Positions 5,040-60,549 of a stretch of DNA of 64,000 nucleotides are shown here, piece after piece. The DNA is from Parcubacteria group bacterium (GTDB taxonomy: Bacteria; Patescibacteriota; Minisyncoccia; Moranbacterales; UBA11712): the NCBI GenBank assembly GCA_041659065.1, contig JBAZYY010000002.1, forward strand, positions 24,091 to 88,090, in the 5' to 3' direction. A program made the position numbers and the translations under genes. The notes under the pieces were generated by a model that was not told the DNA's origin, did not search any database, and worked only from the letters and a program-made list of their open reading frames with translations. Position 1 is the first letter of the stretch; each line of letters opens with the position of its first letter.

Positions 5040-5180
5040 AAAATGATAAACTATCTATAGAGAATTAATTATCAATTTCTAATTTTCAATCAATTTTCAA
5101 TGACTCAATTTTCAATTTCATAATATTTCTGGATTGAAAATTGAAAATTCATTGTAAATTGATCATTGAAGATTGAAAAT
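5040..5180. repeat. AT-rich palindromic intergenic element (CAATTTTCAAT / ATTGAAAATTG heptamer arms), family D
   Basis: Arms of degenerate tandem repeats that are reverse complements of each other; related copy at 40500-40590. Confidence 0.6.
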
Positions 5181-5734
5181 TGCCAGAAAACATGCAAAAT
5201 TATCAAGAAAGACTAGTAGCGATAACTTTTCCAGTAGCGACATATAAGACCAAGGATATCGCCTGGACCATCAGCCTCATCATCGCTTCTGTAATTTTTC
5301 CCGCACTCCTGGCTCACAGTCCCCAGAATCAGTGGATTACCGGAACTATCGTGAACGCCATTATATTTATCGCAGTTTGGCGCGTCGGAATTGTGAATGC
5401 CATGCTTGTTGCCGCACTCCCGTCTTCAATCGCGCTTACGCGCGGACTTCTGCCAGCTCCAATGGCGATCATGATCCCTTATATTATTGCATCAAATATA
5501 GTTCTGATTCTGGCTTTTTATGCTATAAAAAAATACCCACTCATGGGAATTATCTCGGCATCGATATTGAAATTTTTATTTCTCTTCGCAATTACTTCCC
5601 TCTTGGTCAAACTAGCCTCGCCCCTCTTAGTGATGATGCAATGGCCGCAGCTCGTGACCGCTCTGGCCGGCGGCCTCATCGCAGTTGGAATTATAAAAAA
5701 CACCCACGTCCTCATTCCTAAAGTCGGACTTTAG
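5180..5734 (+). CDS. Hypothetical polytopic membrane protein
   Basis: About 5 hydrophobic helices; the last codons and the stop lie inside a REP palindrome. Confidence 0.4.
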   Translation: MPENMQNYQERLVAITFPVATYKTKDIAWTISLIIASVIFPALLAHSPQNQWITGTIVNAIIFIAVWRVGIVNAMLVAALPSSIALTRGLLPAPMAIMIPYIIASNIVLILAFYAIKKYPLMGIISASILKFLFLFAITSLLVKLASPLLVMMQWPQLVTALAGGLIAVGIIKNTHVLIPKVGL

Positions 5735-5736
5735 GA
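5716..5736. repeat. REP-like palindrome TCCTAAAGTCGGACTTTAGGA
   Basis: 8-bp inverted repeat CCTAAAGT/ACTTTAGG; one of at least 6 copies in the window. Confidence 0.65.
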
Positions 5737-5742
5737 AAAACT

Positions 5743-6408
5743 TTATTCGAAAACTATTTCTTCGTCTTGTTTTTTCATTTGAAAATCGGTAATATTTTCT
5801 GCAGCATATTCTTCTAATTCTTTGTAATTTCTAAAGTCTCCTCTGAATTCTTCATCTCTTACTAAATCATCTCTGCTTTTTCCAATGTGATGCAGAAAAC
5901 TGCACCAAGGATAGCTTTCCGCTGCACAAACTTTATGCACTTCGCTGTTGCAGCTCACGTACACTGAAAATCTCGAAAGGGACCCCTCGGATTTTATCTG
6001 CGAAGATTTGAACTTGCCCTGAAATAAGGCGCCATTTCGCTTATTCCTCTCATTGAAATATTTCGTATAACTTGTGCCTAGTTTTTGCAAAAATTTTTCA
6101 ATTCCTTTCTCAACTCTTTGTTTCAAGATCATATGGTAGTGATTTGACATGAGGCAATAACTGACAATATCCACGAGATATTCTCTTTTCCTAAAGTTCG
6201 ACTTTAGGAAGTCATCGAAATTGGCATTCTTGACACACTTCTTATAGTCGCGCCATTTTATCATTGCCCCATCCTCCTTATCATTCAAGAGATTCATCGA
6301 GATAAGAAACCGAGAAAAGTCTCCGTTATCCAAAAACACATCGCGCTTGTCCACGCCGCGATTATAAATATGATAATATTCATTTTCCACAAGAGGCGTT
6401 TTTCTCAT
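5743..6408 (-). CDS. IS200/IS605-family Y1 (HUH) transposase, REP-associated tyrosine transposase (RAYT)-like
   Basis: YHIYNRG N-terminus, HUH motif CLMSNHYHMIL, LFQGKF and C-terminal Tyr (VYVSCNS); flanked by REP palindromes. Confidence 0.8.
   Translation of the reverse strand: MRKTPLVENEYYHIYNRGVDKRDVFLDNGDFSRFLISMNLLNDKEDGAMIKWRDYKKCVKNANFDDFLKSNFRKREYLVDIVSYCLMSNHYHMILKQRVEKGIEKFLQKLGTSYTKYFNERNKRNGALFQGKFKSSQIKSEGSLSRFSVYVSCNSEVHKVCAAESYPWCSFLHHIGKSRDDLVRDEEFRGDFRNYKELEEYAAENITDFQMKKQDEEIVFE
6189..6209. repeat. REP-like palindrome inside the RAYT coding sequence
   Basis: TCCTAAAGTTCGACTTTAGGA; translates in frame as …FLKSNFRK… in the RAYT. Confidence 0.6.
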
Positions 6409-6423
6409 CGTATTTCATCTTTT

Positions 6424-6444
6424 TCCTAAAGTTCGACTTTAGGA
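6424..6444. repeat. REP-like palindrome
   Basis: TCCTAAAGTTCGACTTTAGGA immediately upstream of the RAYT start. Confidence 0.65.
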
Positions 6445-6500
6445 TAACAGATCTTACAAAAAGCCACAAAAAAACAAGCTTAACGCCTGTTTTTCGCAAT

Positions 6501-6547
6501 TCCTAAAGTCGAACTTTAGGAAGGGTTAAACTTTAGGAAGGGTTAAG
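6501..6547. repeat. REP-like palindrome plus an extra half-site
   Basis: TCCTAAAGTCGAACTTTAGGA followed by AAACTTTAGGAAGGGTTAAG. Confidence 0.6.
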
Positions 6548-6563
6548 AATGGTTATTTTTTTC

Positions 6564-6610
6564 CTACCAACATTGAATGTTGGTAGGGGTTATTGAATGT
6601 TGGTGAGGGT
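6564..6610. repeat. Second palindrome type (CTACCAACATTGAATGTTGGTAG plus a half copy)
   Basis: Inverted repeat CAACATT/AATGTTG; half repeat TATTGAATGTTGGTGAGGG follows. Confidence 0.5.
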
Positions 6611-6628
6611 TTATGGAAGAGATAACGG

Positions 6629-11307: not shown

Positions 11308-11779
11308 CAGTTAAAACGGTTACAATTAGTCCTGCGATCACGCACCCTAGAATAATCAACGGAATTGATTTCTTAAGTTTTACATTGAACACAAACGCGG
11401 CAAGGGGCCCTGTCCACCCGCCCAGGAGCGGAATAGGAGTCGCCGTCAGGATAAAAACCGCGAAGGCGCCCCATTTTTCAAATTTTTTTTGCCCTCGTTT
11501 TCGAGTGTGCTCAAACAGCCAGTCGAAAAATTTTTTAAATGCACTGACGTTATCAGAGAGAAATTTTGCAATCGGATTAAGAATTAGAACTATCAAGATC
11601 ATCGGGACCAAATTTCCCAAAACCGACCAGAGATAAGCTGACCAAATCGGCAGATGATAGATTTTAATGGCTATCGGAATTGAAGCCCTCAATTCCGAAA
11701 TCGGGACCATGGCGATCAGAAATGTCGCAAGCTCGGGAGGGAAATTCTGAAACCAGGTGGAATAGTCAAAGTGAAACAT
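11297..11779 (-). CDS. COG2426-family small membrane protein (the so-called small multidrug export protein family)
   Basis: SELRASIP … PLLGGWTGP motifs, 4 TM helices. Confidence 0.5.
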   Translation of the reverse strand: MFHFDYSTWFQNFPPELATFLIAMVPISELRASIPIAIKIYHLPIWSAYLWSVLGNLVPMILIVLILNPIAKFLSDNVSAFKKFFDWLFEHTRKRGQKKFEKWGAFAVFILTATPIPLLGGWTGPLAAFVFNVKLKKSIPLIILGCVIAGLIVTVLTVGL

Positions 11780-34280: not shown

Positions 34281-34427
34281 GTTCGTTTCACTCGACTTAA
34301 AAATTAAAAGTGAAAAGTTTAAAATTAAGGTGCTCGCTACGCTCGAATATTATTATTTATAAAGTAACTATCGCGAAGCGACACCAAAATTTTTAATTTT
34401 TCATTTTTGACTTCTAACTTTCGAAAC
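34281..34427. repeat. Intercistronic palindromic element (family B)
   Basis: AAAATTAAAAGTGAAAAGTTTAAAATTAAGG…CGCTACGCTCG…ATCGCGAAGCGACACC…TTTTCATTTTTGACTTCTAACTTTCG. Confidence 0.6.
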
Positions 34428-34844
34428 CTAAGCCTGCTTAGGTTTCTTCGATCCATATTTCGATCGACCTCGTTTGCGATCATTAACGCCGGCGGAATCC
34501 AAAACACCCCTCACTACGTGATAACGGACACCCGGAAGATCCGGAACCCGTCCTCCGCGAATCATAACGATTGAGTGCTCTTGAAGATTATGCCCAATAC
34601 CCGGAATATAAGCCGTCACTTCCATGCCGTTAGTAAGACGAACTCTAGCGATTTTTCGAAGGGCGGAATTAGGCTTCTTTGGAGTGGTGGTGGAAACCTT
34701 CACGCAAACGCCACGTTTAAACGGACTATCGGTATTAATCGGCTTATTTTTGAGTGTATTAAAAATCCTCGTCATTGCTGGCGATTTAGGCTTTCTTTTT
34801 TGGACCTTGCGCGGCCGTTTTTTGAGCTGATTGATAGTTGGCAT
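34428..34844 (-). CDS. rpsL: 30S ribosomal protein S12
   Basis: MPTINQL…[11 protein letters not shown]12 signature. Confidence 0.95.
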
Positions 34845-41099: not shown

Positions 41100-41100
41100 T

Positions 41101-41144
41101 TCCTAAAGTCCGGCTTTAGGAGCGCCTAAAGCCGGACTTTAGGA
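41101..41144. repeat. Pair of REP-like palindromes (BIME-like)
   Basis: TCCTAAAGTCCGGCTTTAGGA then GCGCCTAAAGCCGGACTTTAGGA; same CCTAAAG…CTTTAGG arms as the REPs around the RAYT. Confidence 0.6.
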
Positions 41145-41153
41145 AAAAATTTC

Positions 41154-43353: not shown

Positions 43354-43361
43354 ATATTTAG

Positions 43362-47837: not shown

Positions 47838-47875
47838 AAAAGGAAAAGCTCATAAGCTCCAAGGAGCTTATGAGC
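47838..47875 (-). terminator. Intrinsic terminator (minus strand)
   Basis: Perfect 11-bp stem GCTCATAAGCT-CCAAGG-AGCTTATGAGC followed, on the minus strand, by TTTTCCTTTT. Confidence 0.5.
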
Positions 47876-49283: not shown

Positions 49284-49313
49284 ATTTTATTCGGTTAATT
49301 TTTTCCATTATTT

Positions 49314-49383
49314 CGGAGTGGGGAGAATCGAACTCCCGATACAAGACCCCCAGCCTTGCGTACTACCACTATACTACACTCCG
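49314..49383 (-). tRNA. tRNA-Pro (anticodon GGG)
   Basis: 70-nt cloverleaf folded by hand: acceptor CGGAGTG/CACTCCG, D-arm GTAT…GTAC, anticodon loop CTGGGGG (U33, G37), T-arm GGGAG-TTCGATT-CTCCC; no encoded CCA. Confidence 0.85.
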
Positions 49384-49511
49384 ATCTTTTTCTTTAAATA
49401 ATTTTCTAGCTTGCCTTTCAAAGCCTCTCTTCTATAGCCACTTTTAAGAAATGTTTCCGCCACTAAAACATCTTTTTTCTCCCCACATGCTTCGAAAAAC
49501 ACCAGTTTGAA

Positions 49512-52961: not shown

Positions 52962-52992
52962 ACTTGGAACCCTGGGTTCCAAGTCAATAACT

Positions 52993-57262: not shown

Positions 57263-57301
57263 TATTCTTTTGACTAAAGCTTAGCTTTAGTCAGGATTTT
57301 A

Positions 57302-59544: not shown

Positions 59545-60549
59545 CTATTTAACTTTCGTCTGGCCGTTGGTTTGAAGCGCAATAGGAATGTCGCGAAAGT
59601 CCAGGGAGTGATCTTTTGGATTCACCGTTACCTCCACAGTCAGCCCTTCTTTCGTTTCTTTCTGAAAATACTGGTCAAATATGAAGTTGCCCAGCGAATA
59701 ATATATCTTTTTGCCTTTATAAATTTCCGAATCCTGCACCACGTGCGGATGGGTTCCGATGATAAAATCCGCGCCGGCATCTATAAATTGATACGCCAGA
59801 TTTCGAATGTTATTACCCGGATCCCCCACCTTATATTCTGTTCCCCAGTGGGGACAAATAATGACGATGTTGGATTGAGTCTTAGCCGCCTTGATATTTT
59901 CTAGCGCCGTTTCAATAGAATCCGGAATGGAATAATTATAGCTGACAAAAGAGATCTTTATTCCATTTATGTTTTTGGAGACTAAAGCCCCAATTGGGGC
60001 TTTAGTCTCCAAATCGCCGAAATATTGCACTCCAGCTTCGTCCAGATATTTTTTTGTCTGTTGTACCCCTGCTTCTCCTTGATTAAGAATATGGTTATTG
60101 CCGAGATTTACGAGCTTGATATTATTTTTCGTCAGGACACCTGCCACGCTGGGAGCAAAAGTAAAGTTAAAGTTTTTACTCTCCCCCAGTTTAGTATTAA
60201 TGCTTACCGAATTTTTATCCGTTATCGGCCCTTCCAGATTTCCAATCACTAAATCTTCGCTCGCGAGCAAATCTTTTACTTGGCCGAACATATAATCATA
60301 GTCCCCTCCGCGCTTATCCGCAGTCTCTCGAATATACCGGTCAAACATCATGTCTCCGACAAAGAGCAGTTTCATGGACTTTCTATCTTCGACGGATGTT
60401 TCTGGATATTTCGATATTTCTTTTCCCAAATTATTAGCATTATCATTAATAACGCCTATTTTTCCGCAACCGGAAAAAAATATAATGATGGCAACCAAAA
60501 AAATTATTTTTACATTTTTCATTGTCATTTTGAGCTTTGAACTTTGCAC
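59545..60549 (-). CDS. CapA/PgsA-family metallophosphoesterase (poly-gamma-glutamate capsule synthesis protein-like)
   Basis: LLFVGDMMFDR, GNLEGPIT, NLGNNHILN, CPHWGTEY, GTHPHVVQ. Confidence 0.8.
   Translation of the reverse strand: MQSSKLKMTMKNVKIIFLVAIIIFFSGCGKIGVINDNANNLGKEISKYPETSVEDRKSMKLLFVGDMMFDRYIRETADKRGGDYDYMFGQVKDLLASEDLVIGNLEGPITDKNSVSINTKLGESKNFNFTFAPSVAGVLTKNNIKLVNLGNNHILNQGEAGVQQTKKYLDEAGVQYFGDLETKAPIGALVSKNINGIKISFVSYNYSIPDSIETALENIKAAKTQSNIVIICPHWGTEYKVGDPGNNIRNLAYQFIDAGADFIIGTHPHVVQDSEIYKGKKIYYSLGNFIFDQYFQKETKEGLTVEVTVNPKDHSLDFRDIPIALQTNGQTKVK

What the first reader, a model, noticed from the sequence alone, without database searches (positions are those of the whole stretch)
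5716..6612. Intact RAYT-type IS200-like transposase embedded in a cluster of REP palindromes, with a distant REP doublet
- The ORF at 5743..6408 has the Y1 HUH-transposase hallmarks (YHIYNRG, NHYHMIL, a C-terminal catalytic Tyr region) but no IS ends.
- Instead it is flanked by four copies of the 21-nt palindrome TCCTAAAGT(N4-5)ACTTTAGGA and a second palindrome type (CAACATTGAATGTTGG).
- A convergent REP pair of the same type lies at 41101-41144 between two unrelated genes.
- This is the classic REP/RAYT (BIME-like) arrangement.
- If the host is a CPR-type bacterium, it is a compact example of REP domestication in a reduced genome.
Basis: partly seen in the sequence, partly recalled or inferred. 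Interest (0 to 1): 0.55.

Follow-up and report, generated by a model that had tools for sequence, protein, structure and literature searches.

The report
RAYT gene carrying its own palindrome
A small bacterium of the Patescibacteria (Candidatus Moranbacteria) carries a single-copy DNA-cutting enzyme gene of the REP-associated (RAYT) kind. The gene is bracketed by copies of one short DNA hairpin and also contains a copy in its own coding sequence, a layout shared by a large, undescribed family of such genes across this bacterial group.

Summary
ORF 5743..6408 (- strand, 221 aa) is an intact Y1 HUH protein. It matches Pfam PF01797, and its predicted fold is closest to E. coli TnpAREP bound to a REP hairpin.

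The palindrome is TCCTAAAGT-N3-ACTTTAGGA, not N4-5. Of the four local copies, two lie upstream, one lies 6 nt after the stop codon, and one is inside the ORF (codons 67-74, FLKSNFRK). The element at 41100-41145 is an inverted doublet with a 21-bp stem.

In 85 homologues, mostly from Patescibacteria genomes, perfect palindromes cluster just before the ATG, at codon ~57-69, around the stop, and in a subfamily at codon ~150. Within a locus the copies share one sequence; between lineages the sequence differs.

The same hairpin occurs as singlets and doublets outside genes in related genomes, at sites that are empty in the window.

The hairpin-to-hairpin unit behaves as a discrete module. Homology between species often stops at the outer hairpins. 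In the one pair tested in detail, the gene diverged far less at synonymous sites than its syntenic neighbours. "Domestication" is therefore doubtful.

In-frame REPs inside RAYT genes are already known for subclass 2.4 (Quentin et al. 2018), but at another position. Verdict: a REPtron-like system, a new variant of a known kind.

The parts
5743..6408 (-). Intact RAYT-like Y1 HUH endonuclease/transposase gene, 221 aa. HuH motif is N89-H90-Y91-H92; the candidate catalytic Tyr is Y150 in Y150-VSC-N154-S-EV-H158.
   Evidence: - ORF listing and Pfam PF01797 match.
- The motif residues are invariant in 23 homologues.
- AF2 model has pLDDT 88.
- Best PDB fold match is 4er8_A, TnpAREP with a REP hairpin, E 9e-6.
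- It is the only copy in the window.
6188..6210 (.). Intragenic copy of the cognate palindrome (TTCCTAAAGT-TCG-ACTTTAGGAA), read as codons 67-74 (FLKSNFRK).
   Evidence: - Sequence and position.
- The homologous ORF site holds a locus-specific perfect palindrome in 45 of 85 homologues, and in 39 of these it matches a flank.
- Palindrome centres fall in all three codon phases and the encoded peptides are unrelated.
- DNA fold is -7.6 kcal/mol, z = -4.1.
6423..6445 (.). Proximal upstream copy, ending 14 nt before the ATG (nearly perfect: outermost pair is A/A). It probably lies in the 5' untranslated region (inferred).
   Evidence: - Sequence and position.
- 57 of 84 homologues have a palindrome of at least 8 bp within 60 nt upstream of the ATG.
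5715..5737 (.). Downstream copy (loop CGG), beginning 6 nt after the RAYT stop codon. It also encodes the last six codons and the stop of the convergent ORF 5180..5734.
   Evidence: - Sequence and position.
- 62 of 84 homologues have a palindrome around the stop codon.
- The same arrangement is seen in the 90% relative L203.
6500..6545 (.). Outer upstream copy (6500-6522) followed by a tandem repeat of [right arm + GGGTTA] (6512-6545, AACTTTAGGAAGGGTTA x2). This is the left limit of the unit conserved among orthologues.
   Evidence: - Sequence and repeat structure.
- Homology among the window, L203, L204 and L116 begins at TTAACC + hairpin.
- GGTTA lies exactly 2 nt from the foot in 18 of 156 sites.
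6469..6495 (-). Terminator-like stem-loop followed by a T run, between the outer and the proximal upstream hairpins. It would block read-through from the upstream pilin-like gene (function inferred). A -10-like TAAGAT lies at 6456..6451 (seen by eye).
   Evidence: - Terminator-like site found by the scan.
- The stem is kept in L203, L204 and L116 with changed bases (alignment A3).
41100..41145 (.). Inverted doublet of the same REP (REPIN-like): perfect 21-bp stem, 4-nt loop, in a 54-nt intergenic spacer.
   Evidence: - Sequence, position and fold.
- Doublets of the same design sit at other intergenic sites in the syntenic relatives L160 and L186.
6563..6611 (.). Palindrome of a second family (CCTACCAACATT-G-AATGTTGGTAGG) with its right arm + GGTT repeated in tandem. 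It is adjacent to the unit, not part of it.
   Evidence: - Sequence and fold.
- Ten further copies occur in fetched loci of related genomes.
- No matching RAYT paralogue is present in the window.

Best explanation
The locus is a REPtron-like unit of about 0.8 kb (5715-6522). It consists of a single-copy Y1 HUH single-strand DNA endonuclease/transposase of the RAYT (TnpAREP-like) kind together with its own cognate 21-23-nt perfect palindrome.

Shown:
- The enzyme has the HuH and Tyr motifs and a TnpAREP-like fold.
- The same palindrome sits at the outer left border, 14 nt before the ATG, inside the ORF (codons 67-74) and 6 nt after the stop.
- The palindrome is also dispersed as an inverted doublet in this window, and as extragenic singlets and doublets in related genomes at non-orthologous sites.
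- The layout (upstream / intragenic / downstream, same sequence within a locus, different between lineages) is shared by a large Patescibacteria-wide family.

Inferred:
- The protein binds the hairpin when it is extruded from single-stranded DNA. It cuts and rejoins at the hairpin foot through Tyr150 and the HuH-bound metal.
- This copies or exchanges hairpins, giving REP/REPIN spread and homogenisation of all copies, including loop flips.
- The enzyme acts preferentially near its own gene, so copies accumulate around it and survive inside it only in tolerant surface segments.
- The whole hairpin-bounded unit is itself exchanged between genomes over evolutionary time. It is therefore closer to the IS200-like ancestor than a fully domesticated RAYT.
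For: Protein:
- PF01797 at 33 bits against a cut-off of 23.
- Y12 H13 N16 R17 G18, N89 H90 H92, Q130 G131, Y150 N154 H158 are invariant in 23 homologues.
- AF2 pLDDT is 88. The best PDB fold match is 4er8_A, TnpAREP with a REP hairpin (E 9.4e-6), followed by IS608 TnpA.

Hairpins in the window:
- Positions and sequences.

Family-wide layout:
- In 84 genes, palindromes of at least 8 bp pile up at -60..-1 (57), +150..+210 (52), +420..+480 (22) and around the stop (62). Other 30-nt bins hold 0-3.
- In 85 genes the upstream copy matches the downstream copy in 48. The intragenic copy matches a flank in 39 of 45. All three match in 26.
- Palindrome centres fall in all three codon phases and the encoded peptides are unrelated.
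- The close relative L204 carries the flank variant ...GGAG in its intragenic copy through a K->R change.

Dispersal:
- 106 of 119 metagenome stretches with the palindrome lack the gene, and many are inverted doublets.
- 14% of sites lie inside long open frames, against 71% of random positions.
- Doublets are present in the syntenic contigs L160 and L186 where the window has none.

Copy number:
- There is one copy in the window.
- Paralogues in one genome are 40-58% identical, each with its own hairpin.

Unit behaviour:
- Homology is limited to hairpin-to-hairpin in L077/L079, L019/L035, L140/L197, L106/L140 and L175/L189.
- The unit limits are shared by the window, L203, L204 and L116.
- Window against L203: third-position identity is 0.77 in the gene and 0.42-0.46 in four syntenic neighbours.
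Against: - No biochemical evidence; cleavage sites and strand preference are unknown.
- The canonical REP foot GT[AG]G is absent.
- NCBIfam REP_Tyr_transpos scores 35.7 bits, below its cut-off of 80. A PDB sequence-profile search finds nothing.
- Only one dispersed cognate element lies in 64 kb, so abundance in this genome is low or unknown.
- About half of the family lacks the intragenic copy, so it is not essential.
- The synonymous-site contrast rests on one pair. In a second syntenic pair (L006/L175) the gene (87% nt) is only slightly above its flanks (75% and 84%).
- No relatives were found on known phages, plasmids or viral contigs that could act as vectors.
Confidence: 0.75

Rival explanations
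1. It is simply an autonomous IS200/IS605-type insertion sequence. The outer hairpins are its subterminal left and right ends, the whole 0.75-0.8 kb element transposes as a single-stranded circle, and the dispersed singlets and doublets are its miniature derivatives.
For: - The hairpin-to-hairpin unit is found in non-homologous contexts in at least 5 species pairs.
- Orthologues share the same unit limits.
- Its size is close to IS200.
- A conserved terminator-like stem-loop follows the left hairpin, and the proximal hairpin lies next to the start codon. This resembles the IS200 left end as I recall it; I did not check that in the literature here.
- The gene has lower synonymous divergence than its neighbours.
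Against: - There is one copy in the window, and the 90% relative always appears in one context across 24 contigs.
- Paralogues within a genome are only 40-58% identical, each with a different hairpin. That is the RAYT pattern, not the near-identical copies of an active IS.
- The motifs are NHYH and Y-x3-N-S, not DH[VI]H and Y-x3-Q of subclass 1.1, and the protein is 221 aa rather than about 150 (Quentin et al. 2018).
- The best fold match is TnpAREP.
- No tnpB is present.
- No relatives were found on plasmids, phages or viral contigs.
Confidence: 0.2
2. It is a fully domesticated, vertically inherited RAYT. The gene no longer moves, and only the REPs are copied for a host benefit.
For: - The gene is single copy.
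- It occupies the same chromosomal slot, with the same neighbours on both sides, in the 90% relative.
- The syntenic pair L006/L175 shows gene and flank identities in the same range.
- Most RAYT groups are mainly vertically inherited (Bertels et al. 2017).
Against: - Window against L203: 75% identical codons at conserved residues in the gene, against 43-51% in four neighbours.
- The unit lies in different downstream contexts in L204 and L116.
- Homology is limited to the unit in several pairs.
- Decayed fragments occur in relatives (L100, L146).
Confidence: 0.15
3. The palindromes are ordinary regulatory hairpins (terminators, mRNA stabilisers, RBS-occluding stems) with no substrate relationship to the protein.
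For: - Copy 5715-5737 scores as terminator-like on the + strand.
- The 3' arm of the proximal copy carries the only AGGA near the start (seen by eye).
- Many hairpins sit between genes.
Against: - The same 21-mer recurs at four places in 0.8 kb, including inside the ORF.
- It co-varies with the gene lineage across 85 loci.
- It is dispersed with presence/absence differences between syntenic genomes.
- The stems are strict Watson-Crick palindromes on both strands, with freely flipped loops. That fits a DNA-level element better than an RNA structure.
Confidence: 0.05

Closest known systems
E. coli REPtron: TnpAREP (RayT/YafM, PDB 4ER8) flanked by REP/BIME sequences
   Same: - Y1 HuH fold; this is the best PDB fold match.
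- Single-copy gene bracketed by its cognate hairpins.
- The same hairpins are dispersed outside genes, partly as inverted pairs.
   Different: - About 9% sequence identity in the fold alignment, and no sequence-profile hit to PDB.
- No GT[AG]G foot.
- Short perfect palindromes instead of bulged imperfect REPs.
- Low copy number.
- A cognate copy inside the ORF.
- 221 aa, with an extra helical segment before the HuH strand and a C-terminal helix.
TnpAREP subclass 2.4 (Bertels group 4; cyanobacteria, Bacteroidetes) with REPs inserted in frame in the tnpAREP gene (Quentin, Siguier, Chandler, Fichant 2018, PMC6006769)
   Same: Cognate REPs flank the gene and also lie inside it without breaking the reading frame, in a peripheral variable region.
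   Different: [quoted passage not shown] Here the main site is N-terminal of HuH (codon 57-69), and a second site in a subfamily follows the Y motif (codon ~145-157).
- Motifs here are NHYH / FQ / YVxCN[SP], against NH[IFV]H / WQ / YIxNNP.
- No 'double foot' GT[AG]G...C[TC]AC.
- The host group (Patescibacteria) is not covered in that study.
REPIN-RAYT systems of Pseudomonas fluorescens SBW25 (Bertels & Rainey 2011, PMC3116915)
   Same: - Inverted REP doublets form a long hairpin in which the two arms compensate each other (window 41100-41145).
- Each RAYT paralogue has its own REP family.
   Different: Those systems have hundreds of REPINs per genome and largely vertical inheritance. Here copies are sparse and there are signs that the gene unit is exchanged.
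IS200 / IS608 (IS200/IS605 family, TnpAY1 subclass 1.1)
   Same: - A 0.7-0.8 kb unit with one Y1 gene between two similar hairpins.
- A terminator-like stem-loop near the left end.
- A discrete unit found in different contexts.
   Different: - Different motif class (Y-x3-Q in IS200).
- Multi-copy near-identical elements are not seen here.
- The IS hairpins are imperfect and subterminal, with guide and cleavage tetranucleotides.
- No intragenic copy is known for them.
Rickettsia palindromic elements inserted in frame in protein-coding genes (from my own knowledge: Ogata et al. 2000; not checked here)
   Same: Palindromic repeats are tolerated in frame inside ORFs. In this window that applies to the RAYT gene and to the CapA-like gene at 59974-60013.
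   Different: RPEs are 100-150 bp long and have no known cognate transposase.

Membership tests
RAYT / TnpAREP (REPtron) | Y1 HuH fold with an HuH motif and a catalytic Tyr | tested here: met
   - PF01797 above its cut-off.
- N89-H90-Y91-H92 and Y150 are invariant.
- Fold match to 4er8_A and IS608 TnpA.
RAYT / TnpAREP (REPtron) | Class 2 Tyr motif Y-x3-N-P (Quentin et al. 2018) | tested here: inconclusive
   Y150-VSC-N154-S: Y and N are invariant, but P is replaced by S in most members (P in P0043) (for the definition).
RAYT / TnpAREP (REPtron) | Gene flanked on both sides by copies of one cognate palindrome | tested here: met
   - Window copies at 5715-5737, 6423-6445 and 6500-6522.
- The upstream copy matches the downstream copy in 48 of 85 homologues.
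RAYT / TnpAREP (REPtron) | The same palindrome dispersed in extragenic space, partly as inverted pairs | tested here: met
   - Doublet at 41100-41145.
- 106 of 119 metagenome stretches lack the gene, and many are doublets.
- 14% of sites against 71% of random positions lie inside long open frames.
- The genome-wide count for this organism was not obtainable.
RAYT / TnpAREP (REPtron) | Conserved 5' GT[AG]G at the foot of the hairpin (canonical REP) | tested here: not met
   - Flanks of all window copies and of about 100 related copies lack it.
- A GGTTA tag 2 nt from the foot occurs in 18 of 156 sites instead.
- Published subclasses 2.6 and 3 also lack GT[AG]G.
RAYT / TnpAREP (REPtron) | Low copy number; paralogues are divergent and each has its own REP family | tested here: met
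   - One copy in the window.
- Three paralogues at 54-90% identity to the query in Moranbacteria RIFOXYB1_FULL_43_19.
- L002/L016 and L001/L003 carry different hairpins.
RAYT / TnpAREP (REPtron) | NCBIfam NF047646 REP_Tyr_transpos equivalog cut-off | tested here: not met
   35.7 bits against a cut-off of 80.
RAYT / TnpAREP (REPtron) | Predominantly vertical inheritance (Bertels et al. 2017) | tested here: inconclusive
   - Same slot in the 90% relative, but much lower synonymous divergence than the neighbours.
- Homology limited to the unit in 5 pairs.
- One syntenic pair looks vertical.
RAYT / TnpAREP (REPtron) | Sequence-specific cleavage of the cognate REP hairpin | not testable with these tools
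   Needs purified protein and single-stranded oligonucleotides.
IS200/IS605 TnpA (TnpAY1 subclass 1.1) | Motifs DH[VI]H and Y-x3-Q, with a core-only protein of about 150 aa | tested here: not met
   NHYH, Y-x3-N, 221 aa (definitions).
IS200/IS605 TnpA (TnpAY1 subclass 1.1) | Several near-identical copies per genome | tested here: not met
   - A single copy in 64 kb.
- The 90% relative appears in one context only.
- The whole genome is not available.
IS200/IS605 TnpA (TnpAY1 subclass 1.1) | Discrete element delimited by hairpins at both ends | tested here: met
TnpAREP subclass 2.4 | REP inserted in frame within the tnpAREP gene | tested here: met
TnpAREP subclass 2.4 | [quoted passage not shown] | tested here: not met
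   - The site is at codons 67-74, before HuH (89-92).
- The second family site lies after the Y motif.
- The motifs differ.

The most novel reading that the evidence does not exclude
The intragenic hairpin is not a tolerated hitch-hiker but a selected cis-element of a self-contained replicator: the gene encodes, within its own reading frame, the substrate of its product. It could serve as an operator for autoregulation on single-stranded DNA or mRNA, as a protected master copy that keeps enzyme and REP family matched, or as an internal element end. A decayed gene fragment in L146 begins exactly at the internal hairpin. Under this reading the enzyme continuously overwrites all copies, which would explain why hairpins at three or four fixed positions stay identical within a locus while diverging between lineages.
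Probability: 0.25. Interest if true: 0.75.

Novelty: new variant of a known kind. Interest (0 to 1): 0.5.

Why it matters
REP/RAYT systems have been studied almost only in Proteobacteria and cyanobacteria. This locus belongs to a large family: 1,034 clusters at 50% identity with E <= 1e-30. The family is typical of the reduced genomes of Patescibacteria. I found no description of REP/RAYT systems for that group in the paper library searched.

The layout is simple: one short perfect palindrome at fixed positions before, inside and after a 0.66-kb gene, with dozens of natural sequence variants. That gives a ready-made covariation set for working out how a Y1 enzyme recognises its hairpin.

The family appears to sit between an insertion sequence and a domesticated RAYT, which bears on how REP systems arise.

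Perfect palindromes also persist at orthologous sites while changing sequence, including inside host ORFs. This suggests an active homogenising process that could be tested.

Tried and rejected
- The idea that the intragenic copy is a recent insertion peculiar to this gene is rejected. FLKxxFRK aligns with homologues, and the site is palindromic in half of the family.
- The idea that the conserved thing is a peptide motif is rejected. Palindrome centres occur in all three codon phases and the peptides are unrelated.
- A PDB sequence-profile search gave no hit.
- The Rfam gathering scan of the window found only tRNA-Pro.
- GGTTA is not a universal foot for the whole family: 1 of 156 copies in other hairpin families carries it.
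- The ORF shows no clear mosaic break at the internal hairpin. The 5' part is only mildly more diverged than the 3' part.
- Target-site definition from filled against empty orthologous sites failed because the intergenic sequence is too diverged.
- Searches of phages, plasmids and viral contigs for vectors found only remote relatives or none.
- The pair L047/L049 (98% identical) is uninformative: the whole 4-kb contig is 97.6% identical.
- Assignment to a published TnpAY1 subclass was not possible. The motifs resemble the NH[YF]H/FQ variant of subclass 2.1, but that subclass is described as lacking REPs.
Full report
**1. The observation**

The region was read directly and its ORFs listed. ORF 5743..6408 lies on the - strand and encodes 221 aa, with YYHIYNRG near the N-terminus and SNHYHMIL at residues 88-95.

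The repeated palindrome is TCCTAAAGT-N3-ACTTTAGGA (9+3+9). The 9-nt arm occurs 11 times in the 64-kb window against 0.53 expected, and no shuffle reaches 11.

Full copies lie at 5715-5737, 6188-6210, 6423-6445 and 6500-6522. In gene orientation:
- two copies are upstream, ending 91 and 14 nt before the ATG;
- one begins 6 nt after the stop codon;
- one is inside the ORF, read as codons 67-74 (FLKSNFRK).

The downstream copy also provides the last six codons and the stop of the convergent ORF 5180..5734.

The second palindrome is 6563-6587, with a 12-bp stem.

The distant element at 41100-41145 consists of two imperfect REPs in inverted orientation. Together they make a perfect 21-bp stem with a 4-nt loop (-25.1 kcal/mol as DNA, z = -9.6). 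It sits in a 54-nt spacer between two co-directional ORFs.

**2. The protein**

- It passes Pfam Y1_Tnp (PF01797: 33 bits, cut-off 23).
- It scores 35.7 bits on NCBIfam REP_Tyr_transpos, below the cut-off of 80.
- The best database relative is 90% identical and comes from Candidatus Moranbacteria. Many relatives are named 'REP element-mobilizing transposase RayT' by JGI.
- In 23 aligned homologues (48-90% identity), N89, H90, H92, Q130, G131, Y150, N154 and H158 are invariant. This gives NHYH, FQG and Y-x3-N-[SP] motifs. The last is close to the class 2 signature Y-x3-NP of Quentin et al. 2018 and unlike the Y-x3-Q of IS200.
- A sequence profile finds nothing in PDB.
- The AF2 model (pLDDT 88) matches best the E. 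coli TnpAREP-REP hairpin complex 4er8_A (E 9.4e-6, TM 0.61 on the target). IS608, ISDra2 and IS200 transposases follow.
- A profile search of 1.84 billion representatives gives 1,034 clusters at E <= 1e-30 and 12,353 at E <= 1e-10. Many hits split at query residue ~70-77, which is the intragenic hairpin site.

**3. The layout is a family trait**

Eighty loci were fetched from GTDB genomes, almost all Patescibacteria, with 32-56% identity to the window protein.

The DNA homologous to residues 64-78 is a perfect palindrome in many of them, with a different sequence in each lineage. Examples are TTTCCTAATCTC-C-GAGATTAGGAAA, TTGGAGGTT-C-AACCTCCAA, CGTAGGTGTC-G-GACACCTACG and TCGGGTGT-CCA-ACACCCGA. 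Some are 36-50-nt doublets in frame.

The same locus-specific palindrome recurs 7-40 nt before the ATG and 1-16 nt after, or overlapping, the stop. A subfamily has a second intragenic copy at codon ~145-157, just after the Tyr motif.

Counts:
- In 84 genes, palindromes of at least 8 bp fall at -60..-1 (57), +150..+210 (52), +420..+480 (22) and around the stop (62). Other 30-nt bins of the ORF hold 0-3.
- In 85 genes, the upstream copy matches the downstream copy in 48. The intragenic copy matches a flank in 39 of the 45 that have one. All three match in 26. A second intragenic copy matches in 20.
- Palindrome centres fall in all three codon phases, and the encoded peptides are unrelated: FLKSNFRK, LGSRAPK, DVGVGHLR, SGVQHPK.

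What is conserved is therefore the nucleic-acid palindrome, not a peptide.

Loop orientation flips between copies without a fixed rule, and the stems are strict Watson-Crick pairs on both strands. This fits a DNA-level element.

In the 81% relative L204, the flank variant CTCC...GGAG is mirrored in the intragenic copy by a K->R replacement.

**4. Dispersal**

With 16 specified bases, some of these are chance hits.
- Only 13 stretches carry a homologue of the gene.
- Many hold two copies 23-24 nt apart with inverted loops.
- Sites with family-typical loops lie inside long open frames in 14% of cases, against 71% for random positions.

Contigs L160 and L186 are syntenic with window 29-47 kb at 67-77% nt identity. 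They carry doublets at two sites where the window has none (near 43360 and 33808). L186 has a window-like doublet at yet another site.

The window's own doublet site is occupied in L160 and L186 by long perfect palindromes of other sequences.

**5. Is the gene unit itself mobile?**

The orthologues in L203 (90%), L204 (81%) and L116 (83%) share with the window a unit that starts at TTAACC + outer hairpin. It continues through a conserved terminator-like stem-loop (window 6495..6469), the proximal hairpin and the ORF. It ends at the downstream hairpin.

- L203 has the same neighbours on both sides: a PilX-like gene on one side, and a membrane protein, NuoE-like and NuoF-like genes on the other.
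- L204 shares only the upstream neighbour.
- L116 has another downstream neighbour.

Between the window and L203, the gene is 88% identical in nucleotides, with third-position identity 0.77 and 75% identical codons at conserved residues. Four syntenic neighbours show 0.42-0.46 and 43-51%. In a second syntenic pair (L006/L175) the contrast is small: 87% against 75% and 84%.

In five further species pairs, homology is confined to the hairpin-to-hairpin unit of 0.70-0.75 kb.

Decayed remnants exist:
- L100 keeps only codons 1-45, next to a type-2 palindrome.
- L146 has a fragment that begins exactly at the internal hairpin.

Against a plain IS:
- There is one copy in the window.
- The 90% relative appears in one context in 24 contigs.
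- Paralogues in a genome are 40-58% identical, each with its own hairpin.
- No relatives were found on plasmids, phages or viral contigs beyond about 32% identity.

**6. Most likely mechanism (inferred from the known chemistry of TnpAREP and IS608 TnpA)**

The enzyme recognises the hairpin extruded from single-stranded DNA. It cuts near the foot with Tyr150 and rejoins. This copies or swaps hairpins, and it preferentially does so close to its own gene. Copies in the ORF survive only in tolerant segments. The AF2 model places residues 64-71 in a short helix and the residues up to 78 in a loop, before the strand that leads to HuH. Continued exchange would keep all copies of a locus identical and allow loop flips.

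The upstream stem-loop and T run would insulate the gene from read-through. The proximal hairpin may affect translation: its 3' arm carries the only AGGA near the start (seen by eye; untested).

**7. Comparison with what is known**

Quentin et al. 2018 describe REPtron-like arrangements in five TnpAY1 subclasses. [quoted passage not shown] Intragenic REPs are therefore not new in principle.

The present family differs in:
- host group;
- protein motifs;
- lack of the GT[AG]G foot;
- perfect short palindromes;
- position of the intragenic sites;
- module-like behaviour of the unit.

That paper does not mention candidate phyla. Three full-text searches found no work on REP/RAYT in Patescibacteria. 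Bertels et al. 2017 find RAYT groups mostly vertical with few duplicates, groups 1 and 4 with low-abundance flanking 16-mers, and an IS-like group 6. The present family resembles the low-abundance end of that range.

**8. Verdict**

This is a genuine REP/RAYT-type system, and a new variant of a known kind. The reading as 'classic' and 'domesticated' is only partly right. Interest is moderate (0.5). It would be higher if the intragenic hairpin proves to be a functional cis-element.

Noticed in passing
window 6563-6611: Second palindrome family (CCTACCAACATT-G-AATGTTGGTAGG) with its right arm + GGTT repeated in tandem. Ten more copies occur in fetched loci of related genomes (L104, L118, L120 x2, L132, L146, L173, L188, L002, L016). 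No matching RAYT paralogue is in the window, so its cognate gene, if any, lies elsewhere in the genome.
   Followed up: partly
window 59974-60013 (inside ORF 59545..60549, - strand): A 40-nt perfect palindrome (20-bp stem, no loop) lies in frame in a 334-aa gene that by eye looks like a CapA-type metallophosphatase (not checked against a family library), encoding ...LETKAPIGALVSK.... The orthologous site in L104 and L095 holds different palindromes (TTGGAAACT-TA-GTTTCCAA; a TGGAGATCGAATCTCCA doublet). The site keeps a palindrome while its sequence changes.
   Followed up: partly
window 41100-41145 versus L160:4330-4395 and L186:6130-6195: The same intergenic slot holds a long perfect hairpin in three related genomes, but with unrelated stems: TCCTAAAGTCCGGCTTTAGG..., TTCCTAATGTTTAACTTAAGGAA... 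and CCTAGACATCGAATGTCTACG....
   Followed up: partly
window 6512-6545; also L104:7836, L114:1846, L123:1125, L121:25, L171:1750, L204:5957: Recurrent tandem duplication of [proximal arm + 5-8-nt spacer] next to a full hairpin, at 23 of 163 distinct sites. It may be a footprint of strand transfer or slippage; it remains unexplained.
   Followed up: partly
window 6523-6529 and related loci: GGTTA lies exactly 2 nt from the hairpin foot in 18 of 156 sites of this REP family (about 0.3 expected), and also next to the type-2 palindrome. It is absent from other hairpin families of the protein family (1 of 156). It may be a lineage-specific counterpart of the GTAG foot.
   Followed up: partly
window 52962-52984, 57271-57293, 34423-34446, 47848-47875, 11674-11698: Further perfect palindromes with 10-13-bp stems. 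The window has 20 with stems of at least 9 bp, against 0-5 in shuffles. ACTTGGAACCC-T-GGGTTCCAAGT resembles the ACTTGG...CCAAGT hairpins of other RAYT homologues. None recurs in the fetched loci.
   Followed up: partly
L100:2019-2270 and L146:1750-1900: Decayed relatives. L100 keeps only codons 1-45 of the gene plus its upstream hairpins, abutting a type-2-like palindrome. L146 has a stop-ridden fragment (residues 66-106) that starts exactly at the internal hairpin, preceded by TAACC, and ends at another palindrome.
   Followed up: partly
L116:900-1100: Downstream of the orthologous unit lies a fragment reading ...IHANPVRKNYVAQADYWYWSSANP..., the Tyr-motif region of a different class 2 Y1 protein (seen by eye in alignment A3).
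   Followed up: no
window 6416-6418 (- strand): An out-of-frame ATG lies 10 nt upstream of the conserved start, 6 nt after the AGGAA of the proximal hairpin's 3' arm. It is conserved in L203. It may be a short leader reading frame.
   Followed up: no
window 1-64000: GC skew is negative throughout on the + strand. The only RNA gene found is tRNA-Pro(GGG) at 49312-49384.
   Followed up: no
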